Shown here in pieces: positions 1 to 59,449 of a stretch of 64,000 nt of DNA. Every line of letters begins with the position of its first letter. Position 1 is the stretch's first letter. Below the pieces are notes generated by a model, which made no database searches, was not told the DNA's origin, and saw only the letters and a list, made by a program, of their open reading frames with translations. Source of the stretch: Geosiphon pyriformis uo1 (lineage: Eukaryota; Fungi; Glomeromycota); NCBI GenBank assembly GCA_016748015.1, contig JAAOMT010000352.1, positions 1 through 64,000 on the forward strand, read 5' to 3'. The position numbers and the translations under genes are program-made.

Positions 1-757
1 CAGACAAGTAGGATTGAAATTAAATGTTAACAAATGTTTCTTTGGCAAAACAGAACTCAAGTTTTTGGGACATGTTGTGAGCAAAGATGATATTAAAACA
101 GATTCAGATAAGATTGAGATTGTTAAAAACTTTCCAGTACCAAATAATCTTACAGAATTAAGAGCATTTTTGAGATTTGCTGGATACTACTGCCACTTTA
201 TCAAAGACTTTTTCAAAATAGCTTAACCACTACACCAGTTCCAAACAAAGAACACCAAATATGAATGGACAGAAACTCAGCAAGAAGCTTTTGATATATT
301 AAGAAGAAAGCTTGTTCAAGCTTCAGTACTGATCTATCTGGATTATAGCAAGCCATTCATAATTATAATTGATACATCTGGTCAAGTATTGGAAATGGTA
401 CTATTGCAAAAAAGACCAGATAAACAAAAACACCCAGTAGCTTATACCAGTAGAAGCTTAAGTCCAACTGAAAAGAACTATGAAACCCCAGCACTAAAGC
501 ACTTAGCTATCTATTAGGCTGTCATCAAATGGAAAGAATACTTAAGTCAAAAGTTTGATGTATATACTGATCACAAAGGACTGACTTCAATCCAGAAGCA
601 AAAATTTGGAGATGATTACTATGCCAAATAGAAAATAGAACTTTTACTATTTAATTATACAGTACATTACAAAAAAGAAAAAAAAACCGGAAATACCAAT
701 GAATTATTATAAATAAGACAAATTTAAAAACATTTCAACCCAAAAATATAACAAAAA

Positions 758-2130
758 ATGAATATACAAAAATACCAACAACTCCAACATTATATAAATA
801 CCCAATTGTTCAAAGAGAAATTATCTCAGAAAAAACAAAACAACATAAAACAACAATCAAAATATTTTATTAATTATCAAAATATACTTTATCAAAAGAA
901 CAAAAAAAATCCAGATTAACCAACCAGAGTAATTACAGAACCAGAAAAGAGACAATATTATTTAACATGCACTCAGACTCAACAACAGAACATTTTCATA
1001 AAGAAGCAATCATGAAAAGAACCAGAAAAAGATACTATTGGCCATCTATATATCAGACATCATCCAATATGTCCAAAATTGTGATGCTTGTTAGAAAAGA
1101 AAAAAAACAAGACCCAGTAAACTGTTAAGACCAATCAAAGTAGAACAACTATTTGATCACATTGAAATTGACTTAGTCAGACCATTAACAATAATCATCA
1201 GAGGCAACAGATATATTGTAGTAGTCATGGACTATTTTACAAAATGGCCAGAAACAAAAGCCATTCAAAGAGTAGATGCAAAATCTGTTGCCAAATTCTT
1301 TTATCAAGATTTGATCTGTCAACACAGATGTCCAAAAGAACTATTATTAGATCAAGAAACTTACTTTGTAAATAGAACATTGGCAGAATTAAGTCAAAGA
1401 TTTGGGATAAAAAGACTATTATTATCATCATATTATCTACAAACAAATGAATTAGTTGAAAAATTCAATAGAACATTGGGTGAAGCAATAGCCAATATCA
1501 GTCAGAAAAACCAAAATAAATAGGATTTGTTCATACCAGCAGTATTATTTGCTTATCAAACAATGAAGCAGAACACTATACAAGCAACATTATTTGAATT
1601 AGTATACAGTAGAACAACAATATTACCAGTTAAGATAGAAGTCAAAACATATCCAACAGAACCAATAACAAAAGAAAATTTTCAAAGAACATTGTTAAGA
1701 AGAACATATGACTTAATGGAAACACTAGAAAACAAATGGCAAAAAACAGCTGATAACATCCAAAAGTCACAAAAGAAACAAAAAAAAAGACATAATCACC
1801 AACTATCAGATAAACCAGTCAAATTCAGAATTGGAAACAAAGTACTTCTACATTGTACCAAAGTGGAAAAACAATGGAGTAGAAAATTTGACCCCAAATG
1901 GGACAGATCATTTCACATAGAAGAAATTCTAAGAAATGGAGCTTATAAATTAAGGTTGAACAACAAAATTTTAACCAAAGCAGCACATAGAGATCAACTG
2001 AAACTCTATTAAAACATAGCATCAGCATCCACCAATAATATTCCACAACTAAGAGCACAGAGAATACTAGTTCAACCAAATGAGATTCTATGAGATCTGA
2101 AACCAATTGTAGTTATTAAACCAAATATGT
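758..2130 (+). pseudogene. Gypsy integrase of Gy-B1 (HHCC remnant, DDE core, GPY/F-like C-terminus), apparently with its own ATG
   Basis: ATG at 758 (MNIQKYQQ); RYYWP and CDAC remnants; DYFTKWPE; KFDPKWDRSF...GAYKL; many in-frame stops. Confidence 0.85.
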
Positions 2131-2195
2131 CAAAATTGAACAACCAAAAGAGTATATAAAAACACAGTATATGTGACAAAAGCAACAAAAAAAAA

Positions 2196-2831
2196 ATGGA
2201 AATACCAGATCATATTCACACATTAGCTCAAAAATTGTTTCAGGCTTTAAGTTAACAGCAAGTAAACATGAAAATTATTATCAACAATCAAACAATTTGT
2301 TATCAAAACACCAAACAAAAAGAGAAAAGTATACCATACCAGCAATCACAGAAACAATCAATAAACTGGTTAGATAAAATAGTAGGGAAAATAAAGAACA
2401 CTTTTGGAAAAATAACCACCATAGTTCCAACAAAAGAACTGGTAAAAGAAAATTGGAACCAATAGATAGACCAGCTTCCAATACCATACTGCTATTATTA
2501 ATTGGGGCGAAAAATAAATATTCAGAAGTTATATCTTAACAAATCCAAGAGAATTTTCAATCAAGAAATAATCAGGAACATTGAAGACATTATTGGAAAG
2601 AAAACAAACTTGACATTACATATTAGAACCATTTATTGATTACACACTATATTTCAAAACTACCCAGAAATATTATTACATTTTAATATGGAAACAATAA
2701 CCATCAACCAATAGGAAAGAATAAACAACTCACAAATTAAAGAAATAAAGAGTAAGGTGGAACAGACACTATTCAAAAAAGAAGTATTTGACATAATTCA
2801 AAATGAGAATTTCAATAGAGCTCAATATTAA
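2196..2831 (+). pseudogene. Gy-B ORF3, orphan ~211 aa protein between integrase and PPT
   Basis: Single frame from ATG 2196 to TAA 2831 with no frameshift; internal stops are all one transition from sense codons; homologs at 58817-59449(-) and ~54040-54668. Confidence 0.7.
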
Positions 2832-2844
2832 AAGGAGGAGATAA

Positions 2845-3615
2845 TGTTACTTATAAAAAAAAACAAATATAAAAAATAGTAGACCAATAAGAGAGTAGTA
2901 GTTAGCACGTGAGCACATTGCTTAGCAATATGGAGCAATGTCAGAAACCACAGCATATTGCTCAGCAATATAAGTATTGCTCAAGAAATCATAGCATATT
3001 ACTTGGGAATGTGAGTGATCTCATAGAACATTAATTATGTATATATAGCAGTAGTATTAGAAGAAGAAAAAACAGACCTCTTAGTTTAGATTTCATCTAA
3101 GCAACCTTTCACATCACAAATATCAATAAATAATTATTTACTATCTCAAATCCACTCCACTATCAACATTTTATGTTAATAGAAGTTGATACTTAATCAC
3201 ACTGGAACAATAGCTCTTAATCATGGCTATTAATAAGATACTAACTTGCAATTGTCTTGGCTTATTTCTTTATTTTCTTTTATTTTTCTTTGTTATTTCT
3301 TTTTGTTTTATTAATTGAAAAAAATTAAAGCACTGAGTTACAGATGTCATAAGGACTGGTAAAAAATCTGTGAAACAAGGGTAGAACACTCATAATTGAG
3401 AATAGCTTACCAAAAGGATTACCAGTCATCATACTGAGAAAGAAATTTGATGGAATTGTAATTCTGAGAGGCTACTAAAACAACAATTGAATCTCTGTCC
3501 ATTATACAAAGAACTCAACAAAAAAAACCTTTAGAAACCAAGATTAATATATCAATTGAGCACCATATTATGGATTTGTTATTTGCTTTGAGACCCCAAA
3601 TAATCATCTGTAACA
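2845..3615 (+). repeat. 3' LTR of Gy-B1 (771 bp); U3 carries TTGCTCAGCAA-type repeats
   Basis: Starts TGTTAC directly after the PPT and ends TGTAACA; TATA-like tatatatagcagtag ~3040; homolog starts at 63631. Confidence 0.9.
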
Positions 3616-8867: not shown

Positions 8868-11800
8868 ATATTACTAATAGAATTTTAGTTATTAACTAGT
8901 ATAAAATTACCTTTATGATTTTTATTATTAATTAGTATATATTAATATTATTTCAAATTATTGAATATTACTATTTAATTAATATCTCAATTTATACAAT
9001 AAAAATTAGAATGATCAAATTACAGAAGCAAAAGAGTATATCATAATTGTTGACAATAAGTGACTTAAGAAAGCCAAAGTATTATTTGACTATAAACTTT
9101 GTAAGCTAACTATCAGATGTGGTAAAAAGCTCATTGTGCTTAAGTACTATTATTAGACAACCTCTCTAGTATTCAAGCAAAACCAAGAAAAAAAACAATC
9201 AGATAAATCAAATAATGATAAAAGTGATAAAAAAGAAGATCAAAAAAAACAAGAAGAAACTGCTAAACTCACTTATACTATCTTTACCAGCAATGACAAG
9301 CTACTGGACAATGTTAAAACTGACAAAGAAGAAATTGTGGTAAATGACAAGCTAATTTACTGGTTCTACTATGATATCTTCAGAAGAACCTTTGATAGAA
9401 AACCTGGCAAGAAAGCAAAATACAGTTATTGGTAGCATGGTCTTTGTGCCAGGTGCTAGTGTAATAAACCTTTGTATTCCTCTAGTGATAAATGCAAGTT
9501 CTGTCTGATTTATTACAAAGATTAAAAGCCAATTAGTTTGATATCCAAAGAAAAACTAAAAGAAGTACAGAAGTCCTTTGAGAATAAACCACCTGAAATC
9601 TAATCACTAGTTGTAGAACAAAAAAAATCTTCTCTTGAAAAAAAAAAAGTGGACATTAAAAATTTGTTGGCTAAAAATAGCCCAGTTATCTTAAAAGAAG
9701 GTAATACCCTTGAACAAACTTATGTAATACAATACATTATCACCACAAAAGAAACTTATTTCATCCATTTAAAGTCTTATCAATCTAATCAACACAATAA
9801 TGAGTTCATCAAAAAAGAAATAAACCAGATGAAAAATCTTGGGTTCATACAAGAAGTTAAGAGTAAATGGGCTTTTCCAGTTGTAGTAATATCCAAAAAA
9901 GGTAGAACTCTACACTTCTGTATCAACTACTGCCAATTAAATACCATCACTATAAAAGACATGTATCCACTTTCCAAAATTAATGCAATGCTAAATAAAT
10001 TCAATGATGCTGCTTTCTTCTCAACCATTGACTTAACTGCTGGATTTTGGCAAGTAAAAATAAATCCAGAAAGCAAAAAGAAAATTGCCTTTATTACTAA
10101 GTATGGCACCTATGAATTTACAGTCATGTTTTTTGGTCTCATCAATGCTTTTTTTATCTTTTAATGCCTAATAAACAAAGTATTTAAATCAGTAAAAGAA
10201 AACTTTGTTCTGGTCTACTTAGACAATATAATAGTCTACTCAAAAACCTAAGATAAACATTTTGAACATTTGCAAAAGGTTTTTGACCTGTTCAGAAATG
10301 CTGGTCTTAAGATCAAACTAATCAAATCTTTTTTTGGATACCAATCCACCCAGTTTTTTGGTCATCTTATTACAAAATACAGAATCTTTTCTAACCCAGC
10401 TAAAGTTGAAAAAGTTCAAAACATTAGACAACCAATGAATGTTTCTGAACTATGCTCTTTTCTTAGTTTGGCTTCTTATTATCACAAATTTATCAAGAAT
10501 TTCTCCAAAATCGTCTTTCCTCTCAATTAGCTACTCAGAAAAAATTTTAATTATTACTAGGGCACTTATTAACAAAAAGCTTTTAAAATTCTGAAGGAAA
10601 AACTTTTTACTAAACCAATTCTCAAACAACCTAATCTGGACCAATCTTTTATTTTTTACACTGATGTATATGACTATGAACTTAGTACTGTTTTTTTACA
10701 GAAAGATGAAAATGGCAGAGAATATGCCATAATATATACTAATAGATCTCTTACACCAGCAGAAAAAAACTATTTAGTTACTGAACAAGAATGTTTAGCA
10801 GTAGTTTGGGCTACTAGTTATTGGAATTAATATCTTCTTGGTGTAAAATTTCTAGTAGTAACAGATTATTAAGCCTTGGTTTGACTGCATAATAAAAAGA
10901 AGCTAAAACACAAACAAATAACTCAGTGAATACTCCATTTGGATGAATTTGACTATAATATTCAACACCACAAAAGAGCAAATTATCAAAATGCCAATGT
11001 TTTCTCTAGACTTACCATCCAGTAATAGTACAATCTCTTAACCAAACCAACTTAATTATTAGTAATACTCTCATAAACAAACACAATAATAGACTTGGAC
11101 AACTACTTTGCCTTAATAAAATTTTTGGGTAAAGAACAATACCCACCAGAATACACTTGACAGCAAAAAAAACATTTGTGCAAACAATTAATTTTCTATT
11201 TGATCCATCAGAACCAATTATATAAAAAAAACAGAAAAGATTCTGATTGCCTCCAGAGAGTTATCAGATTTGAAAAAAGAAAAATTGTAATATACAACAT
11301 GTATATTGACCCATTAACTAGACACTTTGAAAAAACAAAAACAATTCAAAAAACTTTAACTCACTATTATTGGTCTACTTTGGGAAAAAACATTGCTAAA
11401 TACATCAAAACCTGTGACATCTGCCAAAGAAAAGGCAAACTGAATTGCAAAGAAAATATCCATCCAATCTCTGTTGGTCAACCATTTGACAGAATTAGTA
11501 TAGATGTTATTGGGCCTTTAACAATAACTTCTGATGGCAACAGATATATTATTACAGCTACTGACTATCTTACAAAGTAGGTAAAAGCAAAAACCACTTT
11601 AGACTAAACAGTAGTCTCAATAGCCAATTTCATTTATGAAGATATTATTTGCTATTATGACTGCTTCAAAAAACTTTTATCTAATAAAGGAAGAGCTTTT
11701 TTCAGTACACTAGTTAAAGAACTTTACAAGAAAATGGAAATACATCACAAACTTTCCTCTTCTTATCACCCCTAAACAAATGACCTAGTAGAATATTTCA

Positions 11801-12397
11801 ATAAAACATTATGTAAAACTCTAGCCAAAACCAGTGAAGAAACAAACTTATGGAACAAAGTACTGTCTTTAGCTTTGTTTGCTTATAGAACTGTAAATTA
11901 TAACATAACAAGTTATGAACCTTTTTATTTGTTCTATGAACATATAATAATACTACTAATAGAAACTAACATTGAGACAATATCTTTTGAAGAAATCACA
12001 ATAGAAAATTACAAAGACATTTTGCAAAGAAAACTTGGTACCATTCTTGATTTCTTGGTAAAAGCACGAATAATTGCTTTTGAAAAGATAAAACAGTTCT
12101 AAAAAAAACTTAAAAAAAAAAAAACCTATAAAACACTTTCTTTAAGTATTGGTAACTGGTATTAGAATACTATTTAAACAGAAACAATATCTATAATAAT
12201 AAATTCTCTAGCCAGTAAAAAGAAACCTTTATAGTTAACAAAGTTTTGAACAATGGTTCTTATATTTTTCAAAATTAATCTGGAACAATCTTCAATGATT
12301 GTTTTGTTCATGGTATATAACTCAAGAAATATTATAAACAATCTAATTGGTTGCCTATTGTAGTAATATCAACCCAAATAATCAGCAAAAATCAAGT

Positions 12398-13099
12398 ATA
12401 AATAAATGTACCATTTCTAAAACAGAGGTATCTTCAATTAACATAAATAATTATTTTCTGGATCAAAACATTCAAAACATCTTCTATATTTTCTATGAGT
12501 ATTGGATCAAAAACTATCCAAATACTACTTTGACCATTGAAAAACAAACCACTATAACTAATAACAATAGAATATATACTATTATTAAACCAAAAAAAAC
12601 CACTACCAGAAGAGAAAAAATTGGTAGCAAAATGGATAAATATCTGTTAGAAAGTATAACATCAGCTATACTCTTACCTTTTAGCACAATTGAAAAAACA
12701 ATCCAAGAAATTTTGCTCATAGACAAAAATTTGTCATATCAAAGGCAATTAGAACTTTATGGTTGCCTTAGAGAAATCATAAAAGATTTAAAACTCATAA
12801 AAAAAATAACTTCAGAGATATAGGCAGAAATTTTGAATATTATATAATTAGACATTTCAAAAGTTTTAACTATTGCTAAAAGAGCCAAAACTCTAATACA
12901 AAGATTTGGTCTCTTAGATACAAAACTTATTTCATTTCAAGTATTATATATCTTATTTATAAAAAACTTCAACAAACTAGTTAGCTTTGAGTTAGATAAA
13001 ATTTTTCAAATAGATTACACTATGAATAGCTTGATTTTGCCAAAGCTTAATTTCTTTGAAGAGAATGATATTATGGTTGAAACTTATATTTCTTATTAA
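12398..13099 (+). pseudogene. Gy-A ORF3, orphan ~220-230 aa protein running through the PPT into the LTR; start codon uncertain
   Basis: One frame throughout (..QRQLELYGCLREII..AKRAKTLIQRFGLLDTKLI..FEENDIMVET); only two internal stops, both CAR>TAR type; homolog ~52329-53030. Confidence 0.65.
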
Positions 13100-13817
13100 T
13101 TATTACATGTATTAGCCACTGATGTCATATAATTAACCACTCTATTTTTAGAAAGTGATCATTGATTTGATTAATGACCTGACTGTTGATCTGATCATTG
13201 ATCTGATCATTGACCTAATCAATAATCTGATCATTAACTTGATCATTAACCTGATCATTGATCTAGTTGTTAACTTGATTATTGACCACTTTTAATAGCT
13301 ATATAAGTGATGAATCTTTTAGCTGTAGAAAAGCATATAAGAATCAAAGAAAGAAAAGAAATAAAATAACAATTTTTATCTCAATCATTCTCTTATTGCT
13401 AATTTTCTTTTCCTTACCTTCAAATATTTAAACATCTTGAAATAAAAGATATTTGTTGGCCTTTACCTACCCTTTTTCTGAAATAAATAATTGTAGCATT
13501 TGAAAATTTTTGAATAAAATATAACTGAAGAATACATCTGATACCTAATATTGAATTCTAAGAGTACTGACATATAGCATAAAATTATATCAGGCATGAT
13601 CATTTGTTGACAATACAAACTATTTTTTTACTTTCAAATTTTCCAGTTATTTTTTGAAAAGTATAGTGACTAAGATATTTTATGAGACTGATTTCACATA
13701 TTGAATCTATATTCATTCAATTCACTCTTTGAAGTTGAATTCCCTTTGATTTTTTTTATCACCTTACAATCCTGTTTTTTCTTGCTATCCATTAGCTTGT
13801 TACTCTAATGCATAACA
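13069..13817 (+). repeat. Gy-A 3' LTR (749 bp) with a 12-bp TGATCATTGACC tandem array at ~13155-13290
   Basis: Follows the PPT, ends cataaca; homologous to the other Gy-A LTRs. Confidence 0.9.
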
Positions 13818-14080: not shown

Positions 14081-15255
14081 AATTATATATTAATTAAAAT
14101 TAATTTTGCTATATGTATTATTATTATATTATTTAAATAAAAAAATTATTATTTATAGTCAGATTTAAAATAAATACTATAATTAATACAATTATAACAG
14201 AATTAACATAAATATTAAAGAAATTAAATAAAGTTAATATTTTACTTTTTACAAAAAAATAAACTTTAAAGTAAAAACAATACTTTAAAAAATATTAAAA
14301 AAAATAACTTTTTTTGGTATTTTAAAAGATTTAATTGTTTTGAATTAAAAAGTAAAAAAAATTGTTTTTTTGTTTTTAGAACAAAAAAATCAGAAAAGCA
14401 AATATAAAAAAATGACATAAAAAAAATAACTTTGTTATTGATTTACTATTAAATATTTTTGAATTTTTTATAATAGTAACAATTATATTAAAATTGGTCT
14501 TAATTAATTACTTAAAAAAAACTTTAAATAAAGAAAAACTTTTACTTAAAGCCAAAAATAATGCTTTAATAGTAGCCAAAATTGTTTTTTTTTTATATTA
14601 CTTAAAAAAATATTTTAAAAAAACATTATTTAATTGTTTCTATTTTAAAATTTTTTTTTGAATATTAACAATATCAAAAAATAGAAGCTGTAATTATATT
14701 ACTTTTGTTTTAAGTGTGGTTATAAAAATAAAAAAAAGAAATGTTTGTTTTGTTTTTTATTTTTATTGGTATTAAAAAAAATTTTTTATAAATATATTTA
14801 ATCTTTATTTTATTTTGTTTAATTTAATCGTTATTTATGTAATGTTTTACATTGTAAGATTTAAATTACATTGTTTTAATGATTTATTTTATTGGTTTTT
14901 AACTATTAACTTTATTTTTTAATCATTTGAAAAATTCAATTATTAATAAAATGAGATTACATAAATGCAATTGATTATCTCTATATAATTTAATTTAATT
15001 AAAAGATAAACATGTATTTATAAAATTATATTAAAAAAACTTTTTTAGAAATAAATTGGAGTTTTAAATGGGGTTATTCGATCTGCAAAATGATAATTAA
15101 AAATTCGGGACGAGCTTAAAAAATTATAATGTTGTACACTTGATGCCATAAATTTGGTCAAAGGAGTAATAACTGTCAACAATTCTCGAATCTTTTTTTT
15201 TAGGAAGAATATTTAAATCAAATAATTCCAATATTCTCCCTACATCATCAAAAAA

Positions 15256-16687
15256 ATGTTCATGATTTTGTTTATCATCGCGTTGCTCCCACTTTCTCTT
15301 TATTCACTCAGGTCTCGTTTCTTCGCTCTGTTTATGGCACAGCGTCCTGAAGATGAGACTTCTCCCTTTGAACCCCAAAAGTCATACCAAATTCCCTCGC
15401 CTCCCATTGACCCTTCAGCTAACCCCGGAATCAAAACTGTTGTTGTTCCTCCTCCATATTATGTTAATCAGACGGGCAAGATGATTCTAAGGCCTAATTG
15501 CAGCCTTCGTTTATGGAATTTTACTAGTTGGTGCTGCATAACATCTTGCGTTTTAATCGCCAAATTCTTTCTTCGATTTTGCGCCAAATCTACTGTGTAT
15601 AATAAAGAACCATTTATCAAAGTACTTATGGATCCTCAAAGAACACGTCCGATTCTCACAGGTTGAATTATATTGCTATTGATGTGAGTTTTTGTGTATT
15701 AATCTTTAAAAATTCTCTATAAAATAACATATTCTACATTTGTACAGTTGCCAATCATTTATCAACGTAAGAATTTCATGAAATAAGACCTATGATTTAC
15801 ACGAAATTCAATTATTATGGATGAAATTAATTTCTAAATTTGGTTATTTTTATGAGTCTCGATGATCCATTACTATGGGCCAGTCTTCCTTTAGCGACAA
15901 ACAGATCTCTTAATACCGTGCGCTGGACGCTTGGCGCACAAGAAATTTGCTTTACAAGTTCGTAAGTGATCCGCGCAAATAACTTGAACAATTATTTTAT
16001 TACTCTATGCCATTTTACTTTTGAAATGCTTCAACCAAAAATTTGATAAGTCTTTGAATCTTCTTTAGTCTTTTATCCCATTTTTTCGCTTTTGGTCAAG
16101 TAGTCCCAACTGTTCGAGGTGCAGGCATTTATCAGCCAGCCATGAACTTCGCCCTCGATAGATTGAACGAAGGAAAATGGGTGAATTACTAATACTTGAA
16201 TTAAATGATTGTTTTTCCTGTTCAGATACTTCTTAATTCACACTTGCGATTACAGGTTCACATTTTTCCCGAAGGAAAAATTAATCCGACCCCCTCAATG
16301 ATACCGCTTAGATGGGGGGTCGGCCGTCTAATGATGGAAACTTCAAACCTTCCAATTGTCGTCCCATTATGGCATAAAGGTAATGATAGGTATTCACTGT
16401 TGATTTATTACTTTTCTTCTCAATTAATGTGTTTTGATTCAGGCCTTCAAGAGATTATGCCATTAGAAAGGGAAAGTTCTTATATTCCAATTTTGGGTCA
16501 GAAAGTAGTAATAGCCTTCGGAGAACCCATTGATCTCAAAGATGTCCTCACCAAATTTCATCAGGGGAAAATTGAAGAGAGAGAAACACGCATAAAAATT
16601 ACTGATGTCATTTTTAGTGCGTTGAATGAACTTCAGAAAACAGCTGAAGCTTTAGAAGCAGATAGGGTGAAGGAAAAAACATTATAA
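15256..16687 (+). CDS. TAZ1: Tafazzin (cardiolipin transacylase). Exons 15256-15661, 15748-15766, 15857-15961, 16069-16180, 16256-16379, 16443-16687; 336 aa (alternative start 15334)
   Basis: All introns GT..AG; spliced length 1011 nt, open throughout. Motifs RPILTVANHLSTLDDPLLW (HX4D), RWTLGAQEICF, GQVVPTVRGAGIYQPAM, WVHIFPEGKIN, LRWGVGRL, VVPLWHKGLQEIMP. CpGs intact. Confidence 0.95.
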
Positions 16688-27349: not shown

Positions 27350-29307
27350 ATAGATCCAGTAGGCTTCTTTGCTAATGGTTCTGGTTTTGTTTCAGCTGGG
27401 TTGAGAATTCGGTCTAATAATAAAAAGAAAGTGTGCATTGAAAGTGTATACTCTCATAGTCTTTTGTACAAGAAAACTAAAATTCCTTGAAATACTAGTG
27501 GTGTGGTGGATTTGTTGGTGGGTCCTGTTCCTGGCAGCATTTTACAAGCTGGTGATTTAGAATACAAGATGTTTTGGGGTAGCAAAGTGGAGAGTGAGAA
27601 TGCTAATGTTAGTGAGATGTCTGACTTGGAAAACATGGGTAATATAGTGGCAGAAGAAACAAGTTACATAGATTTTAACAATTCAGAAGCTGATGATATG
27701 GTGGATAACATGACTTCAAAAAAGACATAAACGAGGATGTATATTTTGGAACAACTGCCAAAAAAACCTTCTTTTAGTGTTATGGATAATGTCGACAACA
27801 TTTTAGAACTCCTGTCTCCCAAGTTTCATGGTTCCAATCAGCTGCCGAGTGCCAAGTCATGTGTTCTGAAAAAGAGGAGCTTTGAGCCAGTAAAATCATT
27901 TGCTTTAGATATTGAGCTTTCAGCTATTCCAGGAAAAACTGTTAGTGATAAATTGATTTCAATTAAAAAGATTTTTTATTAAGTGGATGGTTTTGGAGAA
28001 GTTTTTACTCCCTCAAAATTCTCAGAGATCATTAGGTCCTCCTTTACTTCTGAGTTAAGTCTTAATAAGACTAAGGAATTGGTGATCTATGAGAAAATTT
28101 TGGTAAATAATAATGTAAGAAAGTTGGGCATTCATTTAAATTAAGAAGTAATTGTCAAGGAAATTCCAGTAGATTTTCCCAGATCAGCAGTTGAATCAGT
28201 TTTTTCTAAGTTCGGTAAGGTTGTGTCAATTAAGATGGAATTGATTGGTTTGTGGCAGAAAGCTTTGGTTGAGTTTGAGTTATTGAAAGTGGCAAGTTTG
28301 GTTGCCTCTAAATAGTCTGTTCTTATGGGAAAGAATTCTGTGTGGGTGGCATTCGCTGTTGAGAATAAACAATCTTGGGTGTTCAGAAATCAACATAAGA
28401 CCTTGCTTTATACTTTACCAGTTGGCACTACTGCTTATGATTTGTTTGATTTGCTTGATTTATATGGTGGGAAGACCTGTTTTATTGGTCACAATTCTAA
28501 TTTTTATGTCTGTAACAGATGTGTTGTGATTTGTTTTGCTGATAAAACATCCAAGCTGGCTGCAATTAGATCTGTTCCAGTTTTTAAGAGTACAAGTTTG
28601 CAATGGGCTGGTCTTTCTTTGGCCTGTTGTGCCAAATGTAAACAATTTGGTCACATCTCTGATATATGTTTGGCTAGTAGGAGTTCTGAAATTCATGGGA
28701 AGTAAGTGGTTACTGATCAAAATCAGGTCTGTCTAGCTGGTATTTATAAGAAAAAGCAAGTTCCTATTGCACATCCAGTTTCTTTTGGTGATAAAACTTG
28801 GGCTCAGGTAGCTGGTGGTTTATTTTTTCGTGTGGCTCCCTTGGTTCCTTTTGGTGTCATCCCATCCCTTGTTGCTGAGACCTTTTTATTTGCCTCTGGT
28901 CCACCTGGTACTCATGATTTGTATGATTGTTTGGCTTCTCTGGATGCTCTCTAGAACTTTTGGCTGACCAGGTTTCTGGTATTTTGGAGCAATTGGGTTC
29001 CATGAAATTGATGCCCTTGGTGGCTGCATCTGATGTTTCTCTTTTGAAGATTCCTATAACTGTGGTTTCTGGTTTGGTTTCAGATATGGTTTTGGGTAAT
29101 GCATCAGCAATCTCCACTCCTTCTTTTTTAGTCATCAATGAAATGACTGCTGTCATAAGTCCAAGTAGTTCTAAAGTTTTAACTACCAAAGTCGGTGGTT
29201 TAGAATCCAAAATAGTGGCTTTGGAAGTTTTGGTTGAATCTGTTTTAAAAAAATTGGACCATTTGTGCTCAGGTTTGGGTTCATTGGCTGTTTTTGTTTC
29301 TCAATAA
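27350..29307 (+). pseudogene. LINE ORF1 (RRM-like region, CCHC knuckle, C-terminal coiled coil)
   Basis: VIVKEIPVDF..VESVFSKFGKVVSIK; CAKCKQFGHISDIC; KVGGLESKIVALEVLVESVLKKLDHL; start ATG mutated to ATA, stops and a frameshift near 28940. Confidence 0.85.
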
Positions 29308-45500: not shown

Positions 45501-45915
45501 AAGAAATAATCCAAATGAAAAATTTTGGATTTATACAAAAAACCAAAAATAAATGGGCTTTCCCAGTTGTAATGGTATTCAAAAAAGGTAGAATTCTACA
45601 CTTTTGTGTTGATTACTGCCAATTAAATATTATTACTATAAGAGATATATACTTATTCTCCAAAATTAATACAATACTAAACAAATTCAATAGCACTGCT
45701 TTTTTTTTAATTATTGACTTAACTGCTGAATTTTGGCAAGTAGAGATAAATTCAAAAAGTAAAAAGAAAACTGCTTTTATTACCAAGTATAACATCTACG
45801 AATTTACAATTATGTCTTTTAGTCTTACCAATGCTTTTTCTATTTTTTAACACCTAATGACCAAAGTATTTGAATCAGTAAAAGAAAACTTTGTTCTGGT
45901 CTACTTGAATAATAT

Positions 45916-46707
45916 TATTATAATTGAAATTCATACTTTTTATTAATTATTACATGTATTAGCCACTGATATCATATAATTAGCCATCTTATTTTTAGAT
46001 AGTGATTATTGACTTAATCAATGACCTAACTGTTGATCTGATTATTGACCTAATTATTAATCTGATCAATGACTTGATCATTGACTTGATTATTGACCTG
46101 ATCATTGACCTAGTCATTAATCTGATCATTGATTTAGTCATTAATTTGATTATTGATTACTTTTGATAGCTATATAAACAATGAATTTTTTAGCTGTAGA
46201 AAAGCATGTCAAAAATACAAGGCATATCAGAAATCAAGAAAATTAAATAAATAAAATGACAACTTTTATCTCAATTCTTTTCTTATTGCTAATTTTTTTT
46301 CCTTATCTTTAAGTATCCAAATATTTTGGGATAAAAGATCACTTGTTGGTTATTCTTTACCCTTTTTCTGAAAACATGTAATTGTAGCATTTGAAAATTA
46401 TTGAATAGAACATGACTGAAGAGTACATCTGATATCTGATATTGAAAATTAAGAGTGCTAATATGAGACATAGAATTATAATAGGTGTGATCATATGTTG
46501 ACAGTACAGACTATCCTTCTATTTTCAGATTCTCAGTTATTTTTTAAAAAGTATAATAACTGAGATATTTTATGAAACTAATCTTGCATATTAAATCTAT
46601 ACTCATTTAATTCGCTTTTTGAAGTTGAATTCTCTTTGATTTCTTTTATTACCCTACAATCCTGTTTTTCTTTGCTATCCATTAGCTTGTTACTTTAACT
46701 CATAACA
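45916..46707 (+). repeat. Gy-A LTR (792 bp, longer 12-mer array)
   Basis: Interrupts the upstream RT right after YLNN; followed by taaaag + PBS tggtgttttttgtaaag. Confidence 0.9.
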
Positions 46708-46757
46708 TAAAAGTGGTGTTTTTTGTAAAGTTGTCAAAATCCACTTTGTTTTTTATT

Positions 46758-48274
46758 ATATAAGTGATTATTCATACTTGTTACAACAATCAGAAGAACA
46801 CTTTGAAGCACACAATAAAAATGATCTAGACTTTATTAAACTCAATCCTTTGCCTTTCTGCTTTGATTTGCTTCTCCATTGAAAAACAATCTAGTAGACA
46901 ATTTCAAGACTTTTAGAACTGGTTTTTAAATAAGCATTTAACTAAAACCTATACAGTCTATACAATTTATTACTTTGATTAAGCTTATCTTGAAGACAAC
47001 TTTGAAGAAAGAAACAACAGTATCAATCAACTTTTATATTCCACAATTTTTAAACAACAGTCTCTTAATTCTGAATACCTAAATTACCAAATTCACATTT
47101 GAATTGCTGTCTATCAGCTAGCTAAAACATCTTTTGAAACAGAAGAAGAAAGCTATTAAACTGCTTCTGTTTTTGATCTCTTTTTAAGTAAATTAGAATA
47201 TTTCACACAAACAGTTACTTCTGAACCAATGGCTAATGACAAACTGCTTTAGGGCAAAGAAATAATACCCCATTACTATTATTCAGAGATAATACACAAA
47301 ATCCAATTGAATAGTTGGATAACTTTGAAAGAGCTGTCACAGCCAACCAATATAATAATGAATACAAATTTCAAATTATTGGTGGCTATCTTCAAGGCTT
47401 TTTTGCTATTTGGTTCTCATAAAAAACCAATGCCAATGCTCAGCAAAGAATTATTAGATGGACATTAGCAAATACTGGAGAAAATAACACCTCTTTTACT
47501 ATTTGGTTTGAAATAAAATTTAGAACTATTATCTTAATATCTAAATGACACATGGAATTAGAAAAAAAAACTCAAGACTCTGGTAAAGTTGTAACTGAAT
47601 ATGCCAAAGCAATCAGAAAGTTAATTAAGCAGGTAGACTCTAAAAAAAACTGGACAAAAAAGCAGAAAACTTATTTCTTTACAAAAAAATTGAGAATTGA
47701 TCTCTCATATGTTCTTTAATCCCTTCTGGCTTTGAAAGACAATTTCATAATAGATATGGTCATTGAATTAGCCCAATAAATTGAAGACAAGCAAAGAATA
47801 CACTTGGAATGCACACTTCCAGTTTTTATTTCTGCTCCTGTCATGACTCTTGTTTTTCATATGGCCACTATTTTTTTTGCTGTCTAAACTCCAAATTTCA
47901 ATGAACAATTGATAGATAAACTCACAGTCAATCTTGTCTGGCTATTAGAACCATTAGCCCAAGCAGTCAGAAATAATCTACAATTCCAAAGACCCAGATA
48001 TGAACTCTGTTTTAATTAATTTCAGCAATCCCCTTATCAAAGACAACAAAATCATGGCCCACTTGTGTGTTATTACTGTGGATTAACTGAACATTTCTCC
48101 AAAGATTACAACAATCCTCTTTTACCTCTTCCAGCTCCTAGAAACAATGACAATTAAAACAACAAAACTATCAACAATAATGTACTCAATCAAAAATCCA
48201 ATCATGTCAACATTAATTTCTTTGGAGAAGATTTCTTAGTTGAAATTATTGTTTATCAGCCTTTAAACTGATAG
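46758..48274 (+). pseudogene. Gy-A gag (capsid plus CCHC knuckle)
   Basis: LFRDNTQNPIE*LDNFERAVTANQY; VTEYAKAIRKLIKQV; VCYYCGLTEHFSKDY; ends UUUAAAC-UGA-UAG. Confidence 0.85.
48262..48268 (+). promoter_or_regulatory. -1 ribosomal frameshift heptamer U UUA AAC at the gag/pol junction (second copy 44021-44027)
   Basis: Correct X XXY YYZ phase in the gag frame, immediately followed by stops; the -1 frame is open into the protease ORF 48358-49056. Confidence 0.8.
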
Positions 48275-50959
48275 GCACACCTCAGAAAAGTAAAAGTGCA
48301 AGCCAACCAGAAAAAAACCTCTTTTATGCTTTTAATTTAACTAATAATGACCATAACATGAATGAACTAGCAATCAACACTTCTGAATCAACAAGAAAAA
48401 AAAAGAAAGCCAAGGTTGATTTTGTTCTGGACTTAAACAAAGCATCCACATCAACTGCTAATAACAATAAGCCACTAAAGGCTAAAGTTTTTAAAAATTT
48501 TTCAAAGCTGGAACCTCCAGAAATTATACAAAAATCTGGTCCTTATTTTATTGTTAAAGATCTTATAGAAACCCCAGCTTACATCATCTTTGACCAGTTA
48601 ATGACCCATTTACAATTCAGAAAAAACTTTTACAAATCCTTGATCCCAAAGAAAAAGACATTAAAAACCAACAAGTGTCCTTGCCAAGCTGAACTTACTG
48701 ACAACAGTAATATTATTCCTCTGATTTGCAAAGTCCAAGTGGCTGACTACTTTATTGATTTAATTCTAGACAGTAGATCATCTGTTAGTGTAATTGTCAA
48801 ACACTTTTTAAAAGCTATTGGAAAAAAGATTGATGAACTTTCAACCAGACCAATAACCAATGTGCATGATAATAAAAAGAAAGGGCTTGGTATAGCCAAA
48901 GCTGTTTCTGTTTGTATTAATAACATTAGCATTGAAACTGACATGGAAATATCTGAAGCAAAAGAATACACCATAATTGTTGGCAATAAGTGGTTTAAAA
49001 AAGCCAAAGCACTACTTGACTATAAATCTTGTGAACTAATTATCAGATATAGTTAGAAACCTATTGTGGTTAAGTGCTATGATTGGACAACTCCTCCAGT
49101 AACTAAGCAAAACCAAGAAGAAAAACAATTAAATAAATCAAATAATGATGAGAGTAATAAAGAAGAAGATTAAAAAAAACAAAAAGAAACTGCTGAACTT
49201 ACTTATACTATCTTCACCAGCAATGGCAAGCCACTAGACAATATTAAAGCTGACAAAAAAAGAATTATGGTAAATGACAAGCTAATCTGATGGCCTTACT
49301 ATGATATCCTCAAAGGAACCTTTGATAGAAAACCTGGCAAAAAAACCAAATACAGCTATTAATAGCATAGTCCTTGTGTCAGGTGCTGGTGTAATAAATC
49401 TTTGTATTTTTCTAGTAATAAATACAAGTTCTGTCTGATCTATTACAAAGATTGAGAGCCAATTAGTTTGATACTCAGAGAAGAACTAAAAGAAGTACAG
49501 AAGTCTTTTAAGAATAAACCACCTGAAATCCAATCATTAGTTGTAAAACAAAAAGAACTTTCTCTTGAAGAAAAAAAAATAGATATTGAAAATCTGTTGG
49601 CTAGAAATAGCCCAATTATCTCAAAAGAAGGTAATACTCCTAGATAAACCCATATAATACAACACACTATTACCACCAAAGAAACTCATCCAATCTATTT
49701 GAAATCTTATCAATCCAATCAATACAATGATAAATTCATCAAAAAAGAGATAACCCGAATGAAAAATCTTGAATTCATACAAAAAACCAAAAGTGAATGG
49801 GCTTTTCTAGTTGTAGTAATATCCAAAAAAAATGGAATCCTACATTTTTGTGTTGACTACTGCCAATTAAATGTCATCACTATAAGAAACATGTACTCAC
49901 TCCTCAAAATTGATGCAATATTAGATAAATTCAATGATGCTGCTTTCTTCTTAACCATTAACTTAACTGCTGGATTTTGGCAAGTAGAGATAGATCCAGA
50001 AAGTAGAAAGAAAACTGCTTTTATTATCAAGTATGGCACTTATGAATTCACAGTCATGCTTTTTGGTCTCATCAATACTCCTCCTATCTTTCAATGCCTA
50101 ATGAACAAAGTGTTTGAATTAGTAAAAGAAAACTTTGTTTTGGTCTATTTAAATAACATAATGGTATACTCAAAAATCTGGGATGAATATTTTGAACACT
50201 TGCAAAAGGTTTTTAATCTTCTTAGAAATGCTAGTCTTAAAATAAATTCAATTAAATCTTTTTTTGGATGACAATCCACCCAATTTTTTGGTCATTTTAT
50301 TACAAAAGATGGAATCTTCCTTGATCCAGCCAAAGTTGCAAAAAGTTTAAAACATCAGACAACCAATAAATGTTTCTAAACTATACTTTTTCCTTGGTTT
50401 GGCTTCTTATTATTACAAATTTATCAAGAATTTTTCCAAAATCACCTTCCCTTTCAATCAACTACTCAGGAAAAATGTTAATTATTACTAAGGCACATAT
50501 CAGCAAAAAGCTTTTGAAATTCTGAAGGAAAAACTTGTTACTAAACCAATTCTTAAACAACTTGATTTGAACCAATCTTTTATTCTGTACACTAATACAT
50601 CTGGCTATGGACTTGGTGCTGTTTTTTCACAAAAAAATGAAAATAGCAGAGAACATATTATAACATATGTCAATAAAACTCACACATCAGCAGAAAAGAA
50701 CTATTCAATTACTGAACAAGAATGCTTAGCAGTAGTATAAACTACTAGTTACTAAGATCAATATCTTCTTAGTGTAAAATTTTTAGTGATAACAGATCAT
50801 TAAGCCTTGGTTTGGCTATGTAACAAAAAAAAGCTGGAACATAAACAGATAACTTGCTGAATATTCTATTTGGATGAATTTGACTATAACATTCAATATT
50901 ACAAAGAAGCAAATCATCAAAATACCAATGCTTTCTTTAGACTTATCATCCAGTAATAG
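48269..50959 (+). pseudogene. Gy-A pol: aspartic protease, acidic/Cys-rich insert, RT, RNase H; ends at TAATAG
   Basis: LILDSRSSVSVI (DSG motif); CVDYCQLN, YEFTVMLFGLINTP, VYLNN; YTNTSGYGLGAV, EQECLAVV, ITDH, NTNAFFR. Confidence 0.9.
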
Positions 50960-51019
50960 TATAAATTTCCAACCAAACCAACTTAATTATTAGTAACTTT
51001 CTTACAAACAAAAATGATA

Positions 51020-52333
51020 ATGAACTTGAACAACTATTTTGTTTTAATAGAATTTTTGAATAAAGAACAATACCTACCAAAATACATTTGATAGCAAAAA
51101 GAACATTTGTGTAAACAATCTAATTTCTATTTGATTTGCCAGAACCAACTATATATAAAAAATAGAAAAAATTCTAACTACTCCCAGAAAGTTATTAGAT
51201 TTGAAGAAAAAAAAATTGTGATCTACAACATGTATATTGATTTATTAACTAGACACTTTGGAAAAACAAAAACAATTCAGAAAATTTTAGCTTGCTATTA
51301 TTAGCCTATTTTAGAAAAAAACATTGCTGAATACATCAAAACCTTTAACACCTGCCAAAAAAAAGACAAACCCAACCAAAAAAAAGATATCTATCCAATC
51401 TCTGTTGGCCAACCATTTAACAGAATTGGTATAGATGTTGTTAAACTCTTAACAATAATTCTTGATGGCAATAAATACATTATTACAGCTACTGATTATC
51501 TTACAAAGTGAGTAGAAACAAGAGCCACTCCAGACCAAATAGCAGTCTCAATAGCCAATTTCATTTATAAAGACATCATCTGCTATTATGACTGCTCCAA
51601 AGAACTTTTATCTAATAGAGAAAGAGCTTTTTTCAGTATACTGGTTGAAGAACTTTGTAGAAAAATGAGAATATATAATAAACTTTCTTTTTCTTATCAC
51701 CTTTAAACAAATGACCTAGTAGAATGTTTTAATAGAACACTATATGAAACCTTAGCCAAAACCAGTGAAAAAACAAACTTATGAGACAAAGTACTGTTTT
51801 TAGCTTTGTTTGTTTATAAAACTGTGAATTATGACATAACAAGTTATGAATCTTTTTATCTGTTCTATGGATACATGACAACACTACCAATAGAAATTGA
51901 CATTAAAACAATACCCTTTGAAGAAATCACAATAAGAAATTATAAAAACATTTTGTAAAAAAAACTTGATACTATTCTTGACTTCTTAGTAAAAGCACAA
52001 ATAATTGCTTTTAAAAAAATAAAACAGTTCCAAAAAAAGCTTAAGAAAAAGAAAACTTATAAAACACTTTCCTTAAGTGTTGGTAACTTAGTATTGGAAT
52101 ATTGTTTAAACAGAGACAATGTCTATGATAATAAATTTTCTAACTAGTAAAAAGAACTCTTTATAATCAACAAAGTTTTAAACAATGGTTCTTATATTCT
52201 TTAAGATCAATCTGGAACAATCTTTAATAATTATTCTGTTTATGATATACAGCTTAAGAAATATTATAAACGACCTGATTGGTTGTTTGTTGTGATAATA
52301 CTGACTCAAATAATTAGCAAAAATCAATTATAA
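51020..52333 (+). pseudogene. Gy-A integrase, separate ORF
   Basis: ATG 51020; RHFGKTKT, CQ, RIGIDVV, TDYLTK, LVECFNRTL, NGSYIL. Confidence 0.85.
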
Positions 52334-52999
52334 ATAAATGTATTATTCCCAAAACAGAAGTATCTTTAATTAACATAAATAATTATTTCCTGGATTAAAA
52401 CATTCAAAATGTCTTCTATACTCTTTATGTATATTGGATCAAAAACTATTTAAATGCTACTCTGATCATTGGAAAACAAACCACTATAACTGATAACAAT
52501 AGAACACATATTGTTATTAAACCAAAAAAAACCACTACCAGAAGAAAAAAAATTGGTAACAAAATAGATAAATATCTGCTAAAAAGTATAACAGTAGCAA
52601 TACTTTCATCTTTTAACACAATTGGAAAAACAATTCAAGAAATTTTGTCCATAGACAAAAACTTGTTATATAAAAGGCAACTAAAACTTTATGGTCACCT
52701 TGGTGAAATCATAGAGGACATAAAACTAATGAAGAAAACAACTTTAGAGATACAGACAAAAATTTTGGACATTATATAATTAGATGTTCTAAAAGTTTTA
52801 ATTGTTGCTAAAAGAGCCAAAACTCTTATACAAAAATTTGGTTTCTTGGATACAAAACTTATTTTGCCTTAAATATTATATACCTTATTCATAAAAAATT
52901 TAACAAACTAGTTAGCTTTAAGTTAAACAAAACTTTTCAAATAGATTCCATCATAAATAGCTTGATTTCATTGAAGCTCAATCTCTTTGAAGAGGATGA

Positions 53000-53691
53000 T
53001 GTTATAATTGAAACTCATCCTTTTTATTAATTATTACATGTATTAATTACTAATATTATATAATTAACCACTTTATTTTTAGATAATAATTATTGATCTG
53101 ATCAATAATCTGACTGTTGATCTGATTATTGACCTAGTCATTGACCTGATCATTAATCACTTTTGATAGCTATATAAGCAATGAATCACTTAGTTGTAGA
53201 AATACATATCAGAAATCAAGAAAATAAAATAAATAAAATAACAACTTTTATCTTAATTTTTTTTTTATTGCTAATTTCTTTTTTTCTATCTTCAAGTATT
53301 TGAACATCTTGGAATAAAAAATTACTTGTTGGTTATTCTTTACTTTTTTTCTGAAACATGTAATTGTAGCATTTAAAGATTATTAAATAAAATGTGACTG
53401 AAAAGTACATCTAATACCTAATATTAAATTATAAGAGTACTGACATGAGACATAGAATTATACCAGTATGTGATTATTTGTTAACAGTACAGACTATTCC
53501 TTTACCTTCAAATTCTCTAGTTATCTTTTAAAAAGTATAGCAATTGAGATATTTTATAAGACTGATTTTGCACATTAAATCTATACTCATTCAATTCACT
53601 TTTTGAAGTTGAATTCCCTTTGATTCTTTTCATCACCCTACAATTTTGTTGTCCCTTGCTATTTGTTAGCTTGTAACTTCAATTCATAACA
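53000..53691 (+). repeat. Gy-A 3' LTR (692 bp)
   Basis: TGTTATAATTG...cataaca directly after the PPT. Confidence 0.92.
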
Positions 53692-54680
53692 GTATTTTTA
53701 TATTGTATTAAAATAAAAAAACAATAGAATAAAAAGTTTGATTTCAAATAGAACAATCTATTTTACATTAAAAAAATTCTAAAAAACAGAGCACACAAAT
53801 TAAGATAAAACAATAAAATTTTGGTCAAAACAGTATATAATAATTGATTTAACCCATATTACAACAAAATATTATTAGTTATTAATAATATTTTACAATT
53901 AAAAGTACAAAAAATACTAGTTAAACCAAATAAAATTTTATAAAACTTAGAATTAATTATAATTATTAAAGCAAATACATAAATTAGATTTGTTAAAGCT
54001 ATATAAAGATCTAATACACAACAAAAAAAAAAACTAAAAAATAAAAATTATAAACAATATTTACTTAATAATACAATAATTATTTTAAATTATAAAACAA
54101 AGAGTTGAATATAAAAATCATAATTAATAAACAAATTATTTAATATAAAAACACAGAAAAAAAACAAAAACTCTAAAATAATCTATAATATTAAGTATAT
54201 TTATCATCAAAAAATATAGTAAATAAAATAATAGAAAAAGTAAAAACAATATTAAAAAATTCAATAATAACTACAACATATTAGGAAATAACCAAAAAAA
54301 ACTAGAATTAATAAACACAACAATTTTCTAAGAACTTTTGCTATTATTACTTAAAAAAACAGCTAAATATTCAGAACTTATATATAAATAAAACCAAATA
54401 AATGTTTAATTCAATTATATTATAGCAGATAAAATGGCTTAATCATATATACAAAAGCAATCTATCAATTACAAACAGGATTTTAAGATTGTCTAAAATT
54501 ATTATTATATTTAATAATAAATATAATAATAATTAACCAATAAAAAAAAATCACCAATTTTTAGTTTAAAAAATTATGGACCAGAATTATCAATACAATT
54601 CTAAAAAAAAAAGTAATAAAGTTAATTCAAAAAGAAGACTTAGAAGATTTTAATAAAGCTTAATATTAAAAAAAATATAT

Positions 54681-58816: not shown

Positions 58817-59449
58817 TTAATATTGAGCTTTGTCAAAATCTTCTATATCTTCTAATTTTTTATCTTTAATTAACTCTTAAACTTCTTTTTTGAGAATTAC
58901 TTAGGTTATTTTTATCTGTAATTTTTCAAATTAGGCATTGGTCATTTTACCCAATTAGTTAATAGTAATTGTATTCATTGTTGAATTAAGTAGTATTACT
59001 GATCAATTTTGAAATCCTATATGTAGCCAATATATGGCTCTGGCTTGTATGAACAGATTGCTTTTTTCCACAAATTGTTTAAGTTGCTGTAATATTGTTG
59101 TATTGAATAACTATTTTGTTTTGTTAGTGTACAAGTTTTAAATATTCAGGTTTTATCTCAAATAATAATAACAAAAATTTCTTGGAAATTGTTGTATTCA
59201 CCAATTCCAAGTTTTTTTCATCAATTTTTGGTATGATACAGCTGTTTCTGGTATTTCCATTAACAGCTTTACTTTTATTATTATCTTGTCTATAGTGTTT
59301 TCTGGTTTTCTGTATGCCTTGTATTGAGTTTTTTTTTTATTCTCTTTGTATTGAATGGTTTGTTAGTTGATTGTGATTTCCATGTTTTGTTGTTGAATTA
59401 GTTAAAATAGTTATTGTATGAGTGAGTGAATATTGTTGGTAATTTTCAT
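58817..59449 (-). pseudogene. Gy-B ORF3 homolog
   Basis: MKITNNIHSLIQ*LF...MEITIN*QTIQY...DFDKAQY*; nearly the same span (633 vs 636 nt) and same ends as 2196-2831. Confidence 0.65.

What the first reader, a model, noticed from the sequence alone, without database searches (positions are those of the whole stretch)
2196..2831. Orphan ORF3 shared by two divergent Gypsy families, at the env position but not Env-like
Seen: every element with an intact 3' end has a ~210-230 codon sense ORF between IN and the PPT (Gy-B 2196-2831, 58817-59449, ~54040-54668; Gy-A 12398-13099, ~52329-53030). The two families share a loose pattern: CYY(Q)LG / LYG(H)LG; then ~35-45 aa later RTIY(R)LHTIF / KRAKTLIQRF; then ITINQ / IS(P)QVL; then an acidic tail at the PPT. 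I see no signal peptide, TM helix, furin site or chromodomain. Inference: an undescribed accessory protein family, for example a transactivator, a reinitiation factor for the separate IN ORF, or an anti-silencing factor.
Basis: partly seen in the sequence, partly recalled or inferred. Interest (0 to 1): 0.8.

Follow-up and report, generated by a model that had tools for sequence, protein, structure and literature searches.

The report
Orphan third gene of fungal retrotransposons
Two families of decayed jumping genes in a mycorrhizal-type fungus each carry a real extra gene where retroviruses keep their envelope gene, but it encodes a small non-membrane protein with no match to known families, which likely works in the nucleus to keep the element active; whether the two families' genes share one ancestor is unproven.

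Summary
The ORFs are real. All 5 of 5 elements with a 3' end in the window carry a 210-218-codon sense ORF between integrase (IN) and the polypurine tract (PPT). Relatives are Geosiphon pyriformis gene models (127 hits for A, 78 representatives for B). B also reaches metagenomic elements; one complete one has the same layout: stop after RNase H, stand-alone IN, ORF3, PPT. Selection shows in B codon positions (p=8e-5) and, more weakly, in A lineage variants (p=0.007). It is not Env: no signal peptide, membrane helix or furin site. No Pfam or PDB match; the B-side model is confident (pLDDT 77) yet matches no solved fold (best Z 4.2). That A and B are one family is not shown: all profile tests failed, and only 1 of 4 bridge proteins aligned (about 55% likely). 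The 'acidic tail' is a by-product of the PPT. Best reading (35%): a nuclear, nucleic-acid-binding regulator or anti-silencing factor, inferred from a conserved basic PY-type motif and evolution 2.5-3 times faster than IN. Earlier scan notes report the split IN in this genome and similar third ORFs in other fungal genomes.

The parts
2196..2831 (+). Gy-B copy B1 ORF3, 211 codons, 5 premature stops, stop codon directly before the PPT
   Evidence: 62% identical over full length to intact P0006
2817..2826 (+). Conserved DNA motif (GAGCTCAA core) just 5' of the PPT, present in decayed form in all five copies and intact in L001; read in different frames by A and B
2830..2844 (+). Polypurine tract of B1
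   Evidence: sequence
2845..3615 (+). 3' LTR of B1 (TG...CA ends)
   Evidence: self-matches
758..2159 (+). Decayed stand-alone integrase of B1 with its own ATG; 36-nt spacer to ORF3
   Evidence: Pfam rve; tblastn with L001 IN 38-51% and junction view
2..721 (+). 3' part of RT-RNase H of B1, ending before the integrase ORF
   Evidence: tblastn with L001 RT-RH, 45%
12443..13099 (+). Gy-A copy A1 ORF3, 218 codons, start codon decayed, 2 premature stops, runs through the PPT into the 3' LTR
   Evidence: (74% to intact P0015)
11086..12401 (+). Decayed stand-alone integrase of A1; 41-nt spacer to ORF3
   Evidence: Pfam Integrase_H2C2
13069..13817 (+). 3' LTR of A1; its first ~30 bases hold the end of ORF3
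52375..53030 (+). Gy-A copy A2 ORF3, one frameshift near 52895
45910..53691 (+). Full-length decayed Gy-A element A2: LTR, gag with CCHC knuckle, protease, RT-RH, separate IN, ORF3, PPT, LTR
58817..59449 (-). Gy-B copy B2 ORF3 (second subfamily, 44% identical to B1), 12 premature stops
54041..54669 (+). Gy-B copy B3 ORF3 remnant, heavily decayed; probably the 3' part of the element that begins at 37304

Best explanation
ORF3 is a selected third gene of a Ty3/Gypsy lineage with a stand-alone integrase, and it encodes a soluble, mostly helical 210-234-aa protein that likely enters the nucleus and likely binds the element's own DNA or RNA to keep it expressed against host silencing. Shown: the gene, its position, selection on the protein, the lack of Env features, and evolution 2.5-3 times faster than integrase. 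Predicted: an N-terminal helix plus beta-hairpin, a flexible basic linker, then a helical core. Inferred: translation from its own ATG (by ribosome restart across a 36-41-nt spacer, or from a subgenomic RNA where the spacer is longer); nuclear import through the basic linker, which carries an R/H/K-x(2-5)-PY motif in 5 of 6 B-side subfamilies and a lysine/arginine cluster in A; and action on the element as a transactivator or anti-silencing factor, like the 3' accessory genes of complex retroviruses. A and B are more likely than not (about 55%) one anciently diverged family.
For: Gene and selection: stops depleted; B1-B2 differences by codon position 88/50/84 of 197, p=8e-5, like integrase (67/40/65 of 295) and unlike LTR controls (22/33/24 of 102; 31/34/32 of 172); in A, 25 lineage-linked variants are more conservative than 146 singletons (mean BLOSUM +0.56 against -0.27, p=0.007). 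Intact 230- and 234-aa relatives at 21-25% identity to B; L001 shows the same layout and L002 has an IN-like tail upstream of the gene. Soluble: highest 19-residue hydropathy 0.44-1.37. Model pLDDT 76.7, linker 46-53 below 50. PY motif counts (chance 7% per 75 aa); consensus from the abstract of PMC2408616. Rate: ORF3 distance 0.98 against IN 0.33, and about 2.0-2.4 against 0.79. Host pressure: CpG ratio 0.02-0.04 in the elements against 0.84 in the neighbouring gene; methylation and small RNAs at Gypsy loci in a related fungus (bioRxiv 2021.03.30.436303, passages). Precedent for a nuclear extra-ORF protein: maize Grande (PMC7264820).
Against: No binding, location or expression data. No known nucleic-acid-binding fold was matched: Foldseek 0 hits at E<=0.001, VIA best Z 4.2, below the tool's stated noise level; a DUF1016_N profile test failed. 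The PY motif is absent from 20 of 20 full-length A proteins and 18 of 18 B2-subfamily proteins, and present in only 1 of 6 B1-subfamily gene models, several of them gapped or truncated. The two metagenomic proteins are acidic overall (pI 5.4-5.9). An NLS fits the escort rival equally well. Fast evolution can also mean weak constraint. The A variant test counts several variants per site, so p is optimistic. A1-A2 codon positions are flat (38/28/28 of 207, p=0.29), as is their integrase.
Confidence: 0.35

Rival explanations
1. ORF3 is an escort or adaptor for the stand-alone integrase: because IN is not part of Gag-Pol, ORF3 would bring it into the particle or carry the integration complex into one of the many nuclei.
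For: ORF3 lies directly behind a separate IN in the four window copies whose RH-IN junction is contiguous and readable (A1, A2, B1, B2) and in L001. The NLS-like linker suits an import role. PMC7264820 raises import of the integration complex as a role for extra ORFs.
Against: ORF3 evolves 2.5-3 times faster than IN, which is unexpected for an obligate partner. No element with split IN and no ORF3, or the reverse, could be sampled, so the linkage may be shared ancestry only.
Confidence: 0.2
2. ORF3 is a cytoplasmic suppressor of RNA silencing or an RNA-binding translation helper (for example for restart at the IN ATG).
For: Small RNAs target Gypsy loci in a related fungus. Both A and B list RNA-binding viral families among weak ESM look-alikes (Translat_reg, Closter_coat). 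Fast evolution.
Against: ESM recognition values are below the tool's 2300 mark, so those hits are weak, and one source of evidence. No structural match to such proteins. A PY motif points to the nucleus.
Confidence: 0.15
3. A and B ORF3 are unrelated genes captured separately into the same slot; the resemblance is generic helix patterning plus a DNA-constrained tail. This concerns ancestry and is compatible with any function above.
For: blastp, three hhalign runs, HMM searches and two own profile tests are all non-significant. 3 of 4 bridge proteins score at shuffle level. Unrelated ORF3s fill this slot repeatedly in rotifer elements (PMC5408684, passages).
Against: P0186 aligns collinearly with A: mean local score 59.4 over 20 A copies with tails removed, against 35.0+-4.2 for 100 shuffles (maximum 49.9) and a maximum of 41.9 for 116 natural decoys (shuffles of two other bridges reached 58 and 62). 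P0186 comes from L001, whose integrase is the B-side one nearest to A (42-48% against 36-43%). The N-terminal B block lands at residue 4 of A in 19 of 20 copies (score p=0.18). Models share the order helix-strand-strand-helices. The rate ratio predicts A-B identity near the 22% shuffle baseline even if they are homologous.
Confidence: 0.45
4. ORF3 is an Env-like or other membrane protein for spread between cells.
For: Position only: sense ORF between pol and the 3' LTR.
Against: No signal peptide, membrane helix or furin site, and 0-2 cysteines, in 7 of 7 proteins; no viral fold match.
Confidence: 0.03

Closest known systems
Sense additional ORFs between pol and the 3' LTR (aORF-3S) of LTR retrotransposons; review PMC7264820 (parts 1-2 of 3 read)
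   Same: Sense ORF in the env slot, present in most copies, function unknown.
   Different: Those described are often Env-like with membrane helices and are from plants and insects; this one is soluble, fungal, overlaps the PPT and LTR in some lineages, and follows a stand-alone integrase.
Non-Env ORF3s of bdelloid rotifer LTR elements (PMC5408684, passages)
   Same: Gypsy-like elements, some with dUTPase in pol, with family-specific third ORFs, some 210-230 aa.
   Different: Rotifer ORF3s are GDSL esterases, DEDDy nucleases, coiled-coil or membrane proteins; no such Pfam family or membrane helix is found here.
Fungal Gypsy elements with an 'add. ORF' of unknown function or dUTPase between protease and RT, e.g. 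PosPlaTy3-5 (PMC2864245, passages)
   Same: Fungal Gypsy, extra ORF, dUTPase in the same pol position as Gy-B.
   Different: That survey concerns chromodomain elements; its supplementary table was not read, so sequence kinship was not checked.
Maize Grande GENE23 (via PMC7264820) and the 3' accessory genes of complex retroviruses such as foamy-virus Tas/Bet and HIV Nef (recalled, no call)
   Same: Works-like comparison only: a separately expressed accessory protein near or across the PPT and U3, nuclear in the case of GENE23.
   Different: GENE23 is antisense; no sequence or fold similarity was found to any viral protein.

Membership tests
Retroviral/errantiviral Env or Env-like ORF | Sense ORF between pol and the 3' LTR | tested here: met
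Retroviral/errantiviral Env or Env-like ORF | N-terminal signal peptide | tested here: not met
   N-terminal 11-residue hydropathy at most 1.07 in 7 of 7 proteins (a hydropathy scan, not SignalP)
Retroviral/errantiviral Env or Env-like ORF | Transmembrane anchor | tested here: not met
   highest 19-residue hydropathy 0.44-1.37 in 7 of 7
Retroviral/errantiviral Env or Env-like ORF | Furin site RX[KR]R | tested here: not met
   0 of 7
Ty3/Gypsy (host elements) | LTRs, PPT and order gag-PR-RT-RH-IN | tested here: met
Ty3/Gypsy (host elements) | Integrase made as part of the Pol polyprotein | tested here: not met
   stop after RNase H and a new start in the window copies and in L001
Chromodomain protein | Chromodomain in ORF3 | tested here: not met
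   no Pfam chromodomain in any ORF3 scanned
aORF-3S (sense extra ORF, a positional class) | Present in all or most copies and conserved as protein | tested here: met
   5 of 5 copies; codon-position and variant tests
GDSL / DEDDy ORF3s of rotifers | Catalytic domain detectable by profile | tested here: not met
DUF1016_N (YhcG N-terminal domain; resemblance recalled) | Profile similarity over the domain | tested here: not met
   hhalign E 0.11-0.17 over 11-17 columns; 55 YhcG-N sequences score 18.6 against 17.1 reversed
ParB/Spo0J-like helix-turn-helix fold | Structural superposition of the helical core | tested here: inconclusive
   Spo0J Z 3.7, rmsd 5.5, 95 aligned; ParB Z 3.6, rmsd 2.9, 59 aligned; tied with unrelated rows
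One ORF3 family joining A and B | Significant profile or structural similarity | tested here: inconclusive
   profiles negative; 1 of 4 bridges positive; A model too poor to compare (pLDDT 37.6)
Basic PY-NLS cargo | R/H/K-x(2-5)-PY in a flexible basic stretch | tested here: inconclusive
   present in 5 of 6 B-side subfamilies, 0 of 20 A proteins
Basic PY-NLS cargo | Import by Kap104/transportin | not testable with these tools
   needs a cell assay

The most novel reading that the evidence does not exclude
A and B are one ancient accessory family with an unsolved fold, carried throughout the split-integrase Gypsy lineage of mycorrhizal-type fungi, and it is an element-specific nuclear factor that defeats methylation or small-RNA silencing (or escorts the free integrase). 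It would then be a fungal counterpart of retroviral accessory genes and help explain how LTR elements came to fill about 41% of the Geosiphon genome.
Probability: 0.2. Interest if true: 0.8.

Novelty: new variant of a known kind. Interest (0 to 1): 0.5.

Why it matters
Extra ORFs in the env slot are a known class, but few have a function, and I found none described for mycorrhizal-type fungi in nine literature searches. This one comes with intact natural proteins and a confident model that matches no solved fold, so it can be expressed and tested. It belongs to elements that also break the rule that integrase is part of Pol. LTR elements cover 41.2% of the G. pyriformis genome (PMC11952901, passage), so a counter-silencing or escort factor would bear on that expansion. 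A practical point holds regardless of function: well over a hundred Geosiphon 'hypothetical proteins' are transposon ORF3 copies, not host orphan genes.

Tried and rejected
No whole genome is held for the window, so genome-wide copy counts and dN/dS between subfamilies were not possible. Classical pN/pS was rejected as evidence: the non-coding LTR control gives 0.40-0.71, as low as ORF3. Direct A-B comparisons led nowhere: blastp, MAFFT (24), hhalign, HMM both ways (best E 0.034 among 7), gapped profile (254 of 600 shuffles as high), collinear blocks (103 of 500). Pfam, PHROGs and PDB-sequence scans gave nothing above cut-off (best PHROG E 0.0012, one protein only). Foldseek on PDB and viral models: 0 at E<=0.001. 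VIA: best Z 4.2 and 4.1 for the B-side model and 6.4 for a short helical piece of the poor A model; a missing match does not show that the fold is new, and the N-terminal part was barely tested. The recalled DUF1016_N resemblance failed. Troyka was checked and is unrelated (animal only, single Gag-Pol; PMC12440569 parts 1-3 of 5). Viral contigs and phages held no ORF3 relative or PPT motif. No RNA holder was listed. The ORF3-integrase complex prediction did not run because the queue was full.

Full report
Setting. The window is AT-rich and full of nested, decayed transposons. Relatives of both ORFs carry source names of Geosiphon pyriformis: 2 of 2 hits for B and 120 of 120 listed hits, of 127, for A. 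The host is therefore this fungus or a close relative. CpG is almost gone from the elements (ratio 0.02-0.04) but not from the neighbouring host gene (0.84). The common unlinked amino-acid changes among A copies are nearly all of the C-to-T or G-to-A kind. No whole genome was available.

The observation. Five elements have their 3' end in the window, and tblastn with intact relatives finds ORF3 in all five. B1 (2196-2831) has 5 in-frame stops against 20 and 10 in the other sense frames; A1 has 2 against 23 and 24. Composition predicts about 18-20. The five B1 stops fall where intact relatives have Q, W or R. Intact versions exist: P0006 (211 aa) for B and 20 proteins of exactly 218 aa for A. 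The A start is at 12443. B3 is only a remnant. The 'acidic tail' is explained by DNA: A reads through the PPT and ends about 9 codons inside the LTR; B1 and B2 stop before the PPT; a short DNA motif upstream of the PPT is shared but read in different frames.

Selection. Classical pN/pS is not usable here, because the non-coding LTR gives equally low ratios (0.40-0.71). Codon position is: B1 against B2 differs at 88, 50 and 84 of 197 positions (p=8e-5), like integrase and unlike two LTR controls. A1 against A2 is flat, as is their integrase, so that pair says nothing. Among 118 of 120 A gene models, 25 variants linked to other variants are more conservative than 146 singletons and 118 unlinked common variants (p=0.007 and 0.009; sites are not independent).

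Reach. A profile of B found 78 representatives among 1.84 billion proteins. Of 10 looked up, 8 were Geosiphon and 2 were unnamed metagenomic proteins, P0171 (234 aa) and P0186 (230 aa), 21-25% identical to P0006 in the multiple alignment. A second search gave 19 hits, 18 of them Geosiphon. The metagenome scan returned 2 loci from 592 pattern matches. L001 reads RT-RNase H, stop, integrase with its own ATG (one internal stop), a 316-base spacer, ORF3, PPT. L002 shows an integrase-like tail, an extra ~128-aa ORF, then ORF3. ESM features put two Mucoromycota clusters at ranks 1 and 3 for P0006 (0.94, 0.93), a weak lead. No A relative outside Geosiphon was found.

Are A and B one family? Not shown. 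Direct and profile tests failed. One bridge works: P0186 against 20 A copies scores 59.4 with tails removed, against 35.0+-4.2 for its shuffles and at most 41.9 for 116 natural decoys; the other three bridges score 34-38, and their shuffles reached 58-62 on occasion. L001's integrase is the B-side one nearest to A (six rows, no outgroup). Both models give helix, strand, strand, then helices, but the A model is poor (pLDDT 37.6). ORF3 evolves 2.5-3 times faster than integrase, so at the A-B integrase distance (1.0-1.26) identity would sit near the 22% shuffle baseline. I put common ancestry at about 55%.

What the protein is. It is not Env: 7 of 7 proteins lack a signal peptide, membrane helix and furin site by hydropathy and pattern scan. 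No Pfam family passes its cut-off and no PDB sequence matches. The P0171 model has pLDDT 76.7, with a helical core at 83-95. Foldseek finds nothing at E<=0.001; VIA's best is Z 4.2, rmsd 2.9, 66 aligned, with ParB/Spo0J domains at Z 3.6-3.7 among unrelated rows. A recalled likeness to DUF1016_N failed when tested. The one functional clue is the flexible basic linker after the hairpin. It holds R/H/K-x(2-5)-PY in 5 of 6 B-side subfamilies, absent from B2 and from 20 of 20 A proteins, which have a lysine/arginine cluster there. That is the C-terminal motif of PY nuclear signals (PMC2408616, abstract).

Mechanism. Shown: a selected, soluble third gene behind a stand-alone integrase. Inferred: expression from its own ATG; nuclear import; binding to the element's DNA or RNA; activation or protection from silencing. 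Fast evolution and heavy CpG loss fit a conflict with host defence, and a related fungus methylates and makes small RNAs from Gypsy loci (bioRxiv 2021.03.30.436303, passages). I give this 35%, an integrase escort 20%, a cytoplasmic RNA-level role 15% and Env 3%. The complex prediction that could have tested the escort idea did not run, and no RNA holder was listed, so expression is untested.

Known and new. Extra ORFs in this slot are a known class (PMC7264820, parts 1-2 of 3; PMC5408684 and PMC2864245, passages). Nine searches and passages of PMC3248453 and PMC11952901 showed no description of this ORF3. I did not see Repbase, the Geosiphon genome paper or any supplement; the table in Additional file 1 of PMC2864245 could bear on novelty. 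Earlier scan notes report the split integrase in this genome and third ORFs in other fungal Gypsy elements; look-ups by sequence found nothing, so kinship with those is unknown. Verdict: a real, apparently undescribed orphan accessory gene family (or two), a new variant of a known kind, interest 0.5.

Noticed in passing
window 62840-63733 (-): Gy-B pol carries a dUTPase domain upstream of RT (Pfam E 1.7e-7); the same position is described for a Postia Gypsy family (PMC2864245).
   Followed up: partly
window 700-760, 11020-11090, 50950-51020, 60860-60930; L001 772-801: RNase H ends at a stop and integrase begins at its own start in both families and in the metagenomic element.
   Followed up: partly
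L002 398-811: A further ORF (about 128 aa from its first ATG) lies between the integrase tail and ORF3; no Pfam hit, no match in the window.
   Followed up: partly
window 2817, 13042, 52973, 54655, 58831 (-); L001 about 3089: A conserved DNA motif with a GAGCTC core about 10 bases upstream of the PPT in both families; probably a cis signal, function untested.
   Followed up: partly
window 37304-40887 and 53691-55449: These look like the two halves of one Gy-B element split by a 13-kb nest of Gy-A elements and a Gy-B LTR.
   Followed up: no
window 15226-16687 (+): Host acyltransferase gene with normal CpG content (Pfam E 3.9e-5); looks tafazzin-like (name recalled).
   Followed up: no
window 28300-34100, with related pieces at 19418-21146 and 35234-36892: Decayed element that by eye looks like a non-LTR retrotransposon (endonuclease, RT and RNase H-like frames); not scanned against families.
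   Followed up: no
window 13150-13290, 45980-46110, 58600-58740: Short tandem repeats of variable copy number near the start of the A and B2 LTRs.
   Followed up: no
proteins P0008-P0127 and many of P0128-P0219: Many Geosiphon 'hypothetical protein' gene models are ORF3 copies, often spliced by the gene finder to other transposon pieces.
   Followed up: partly
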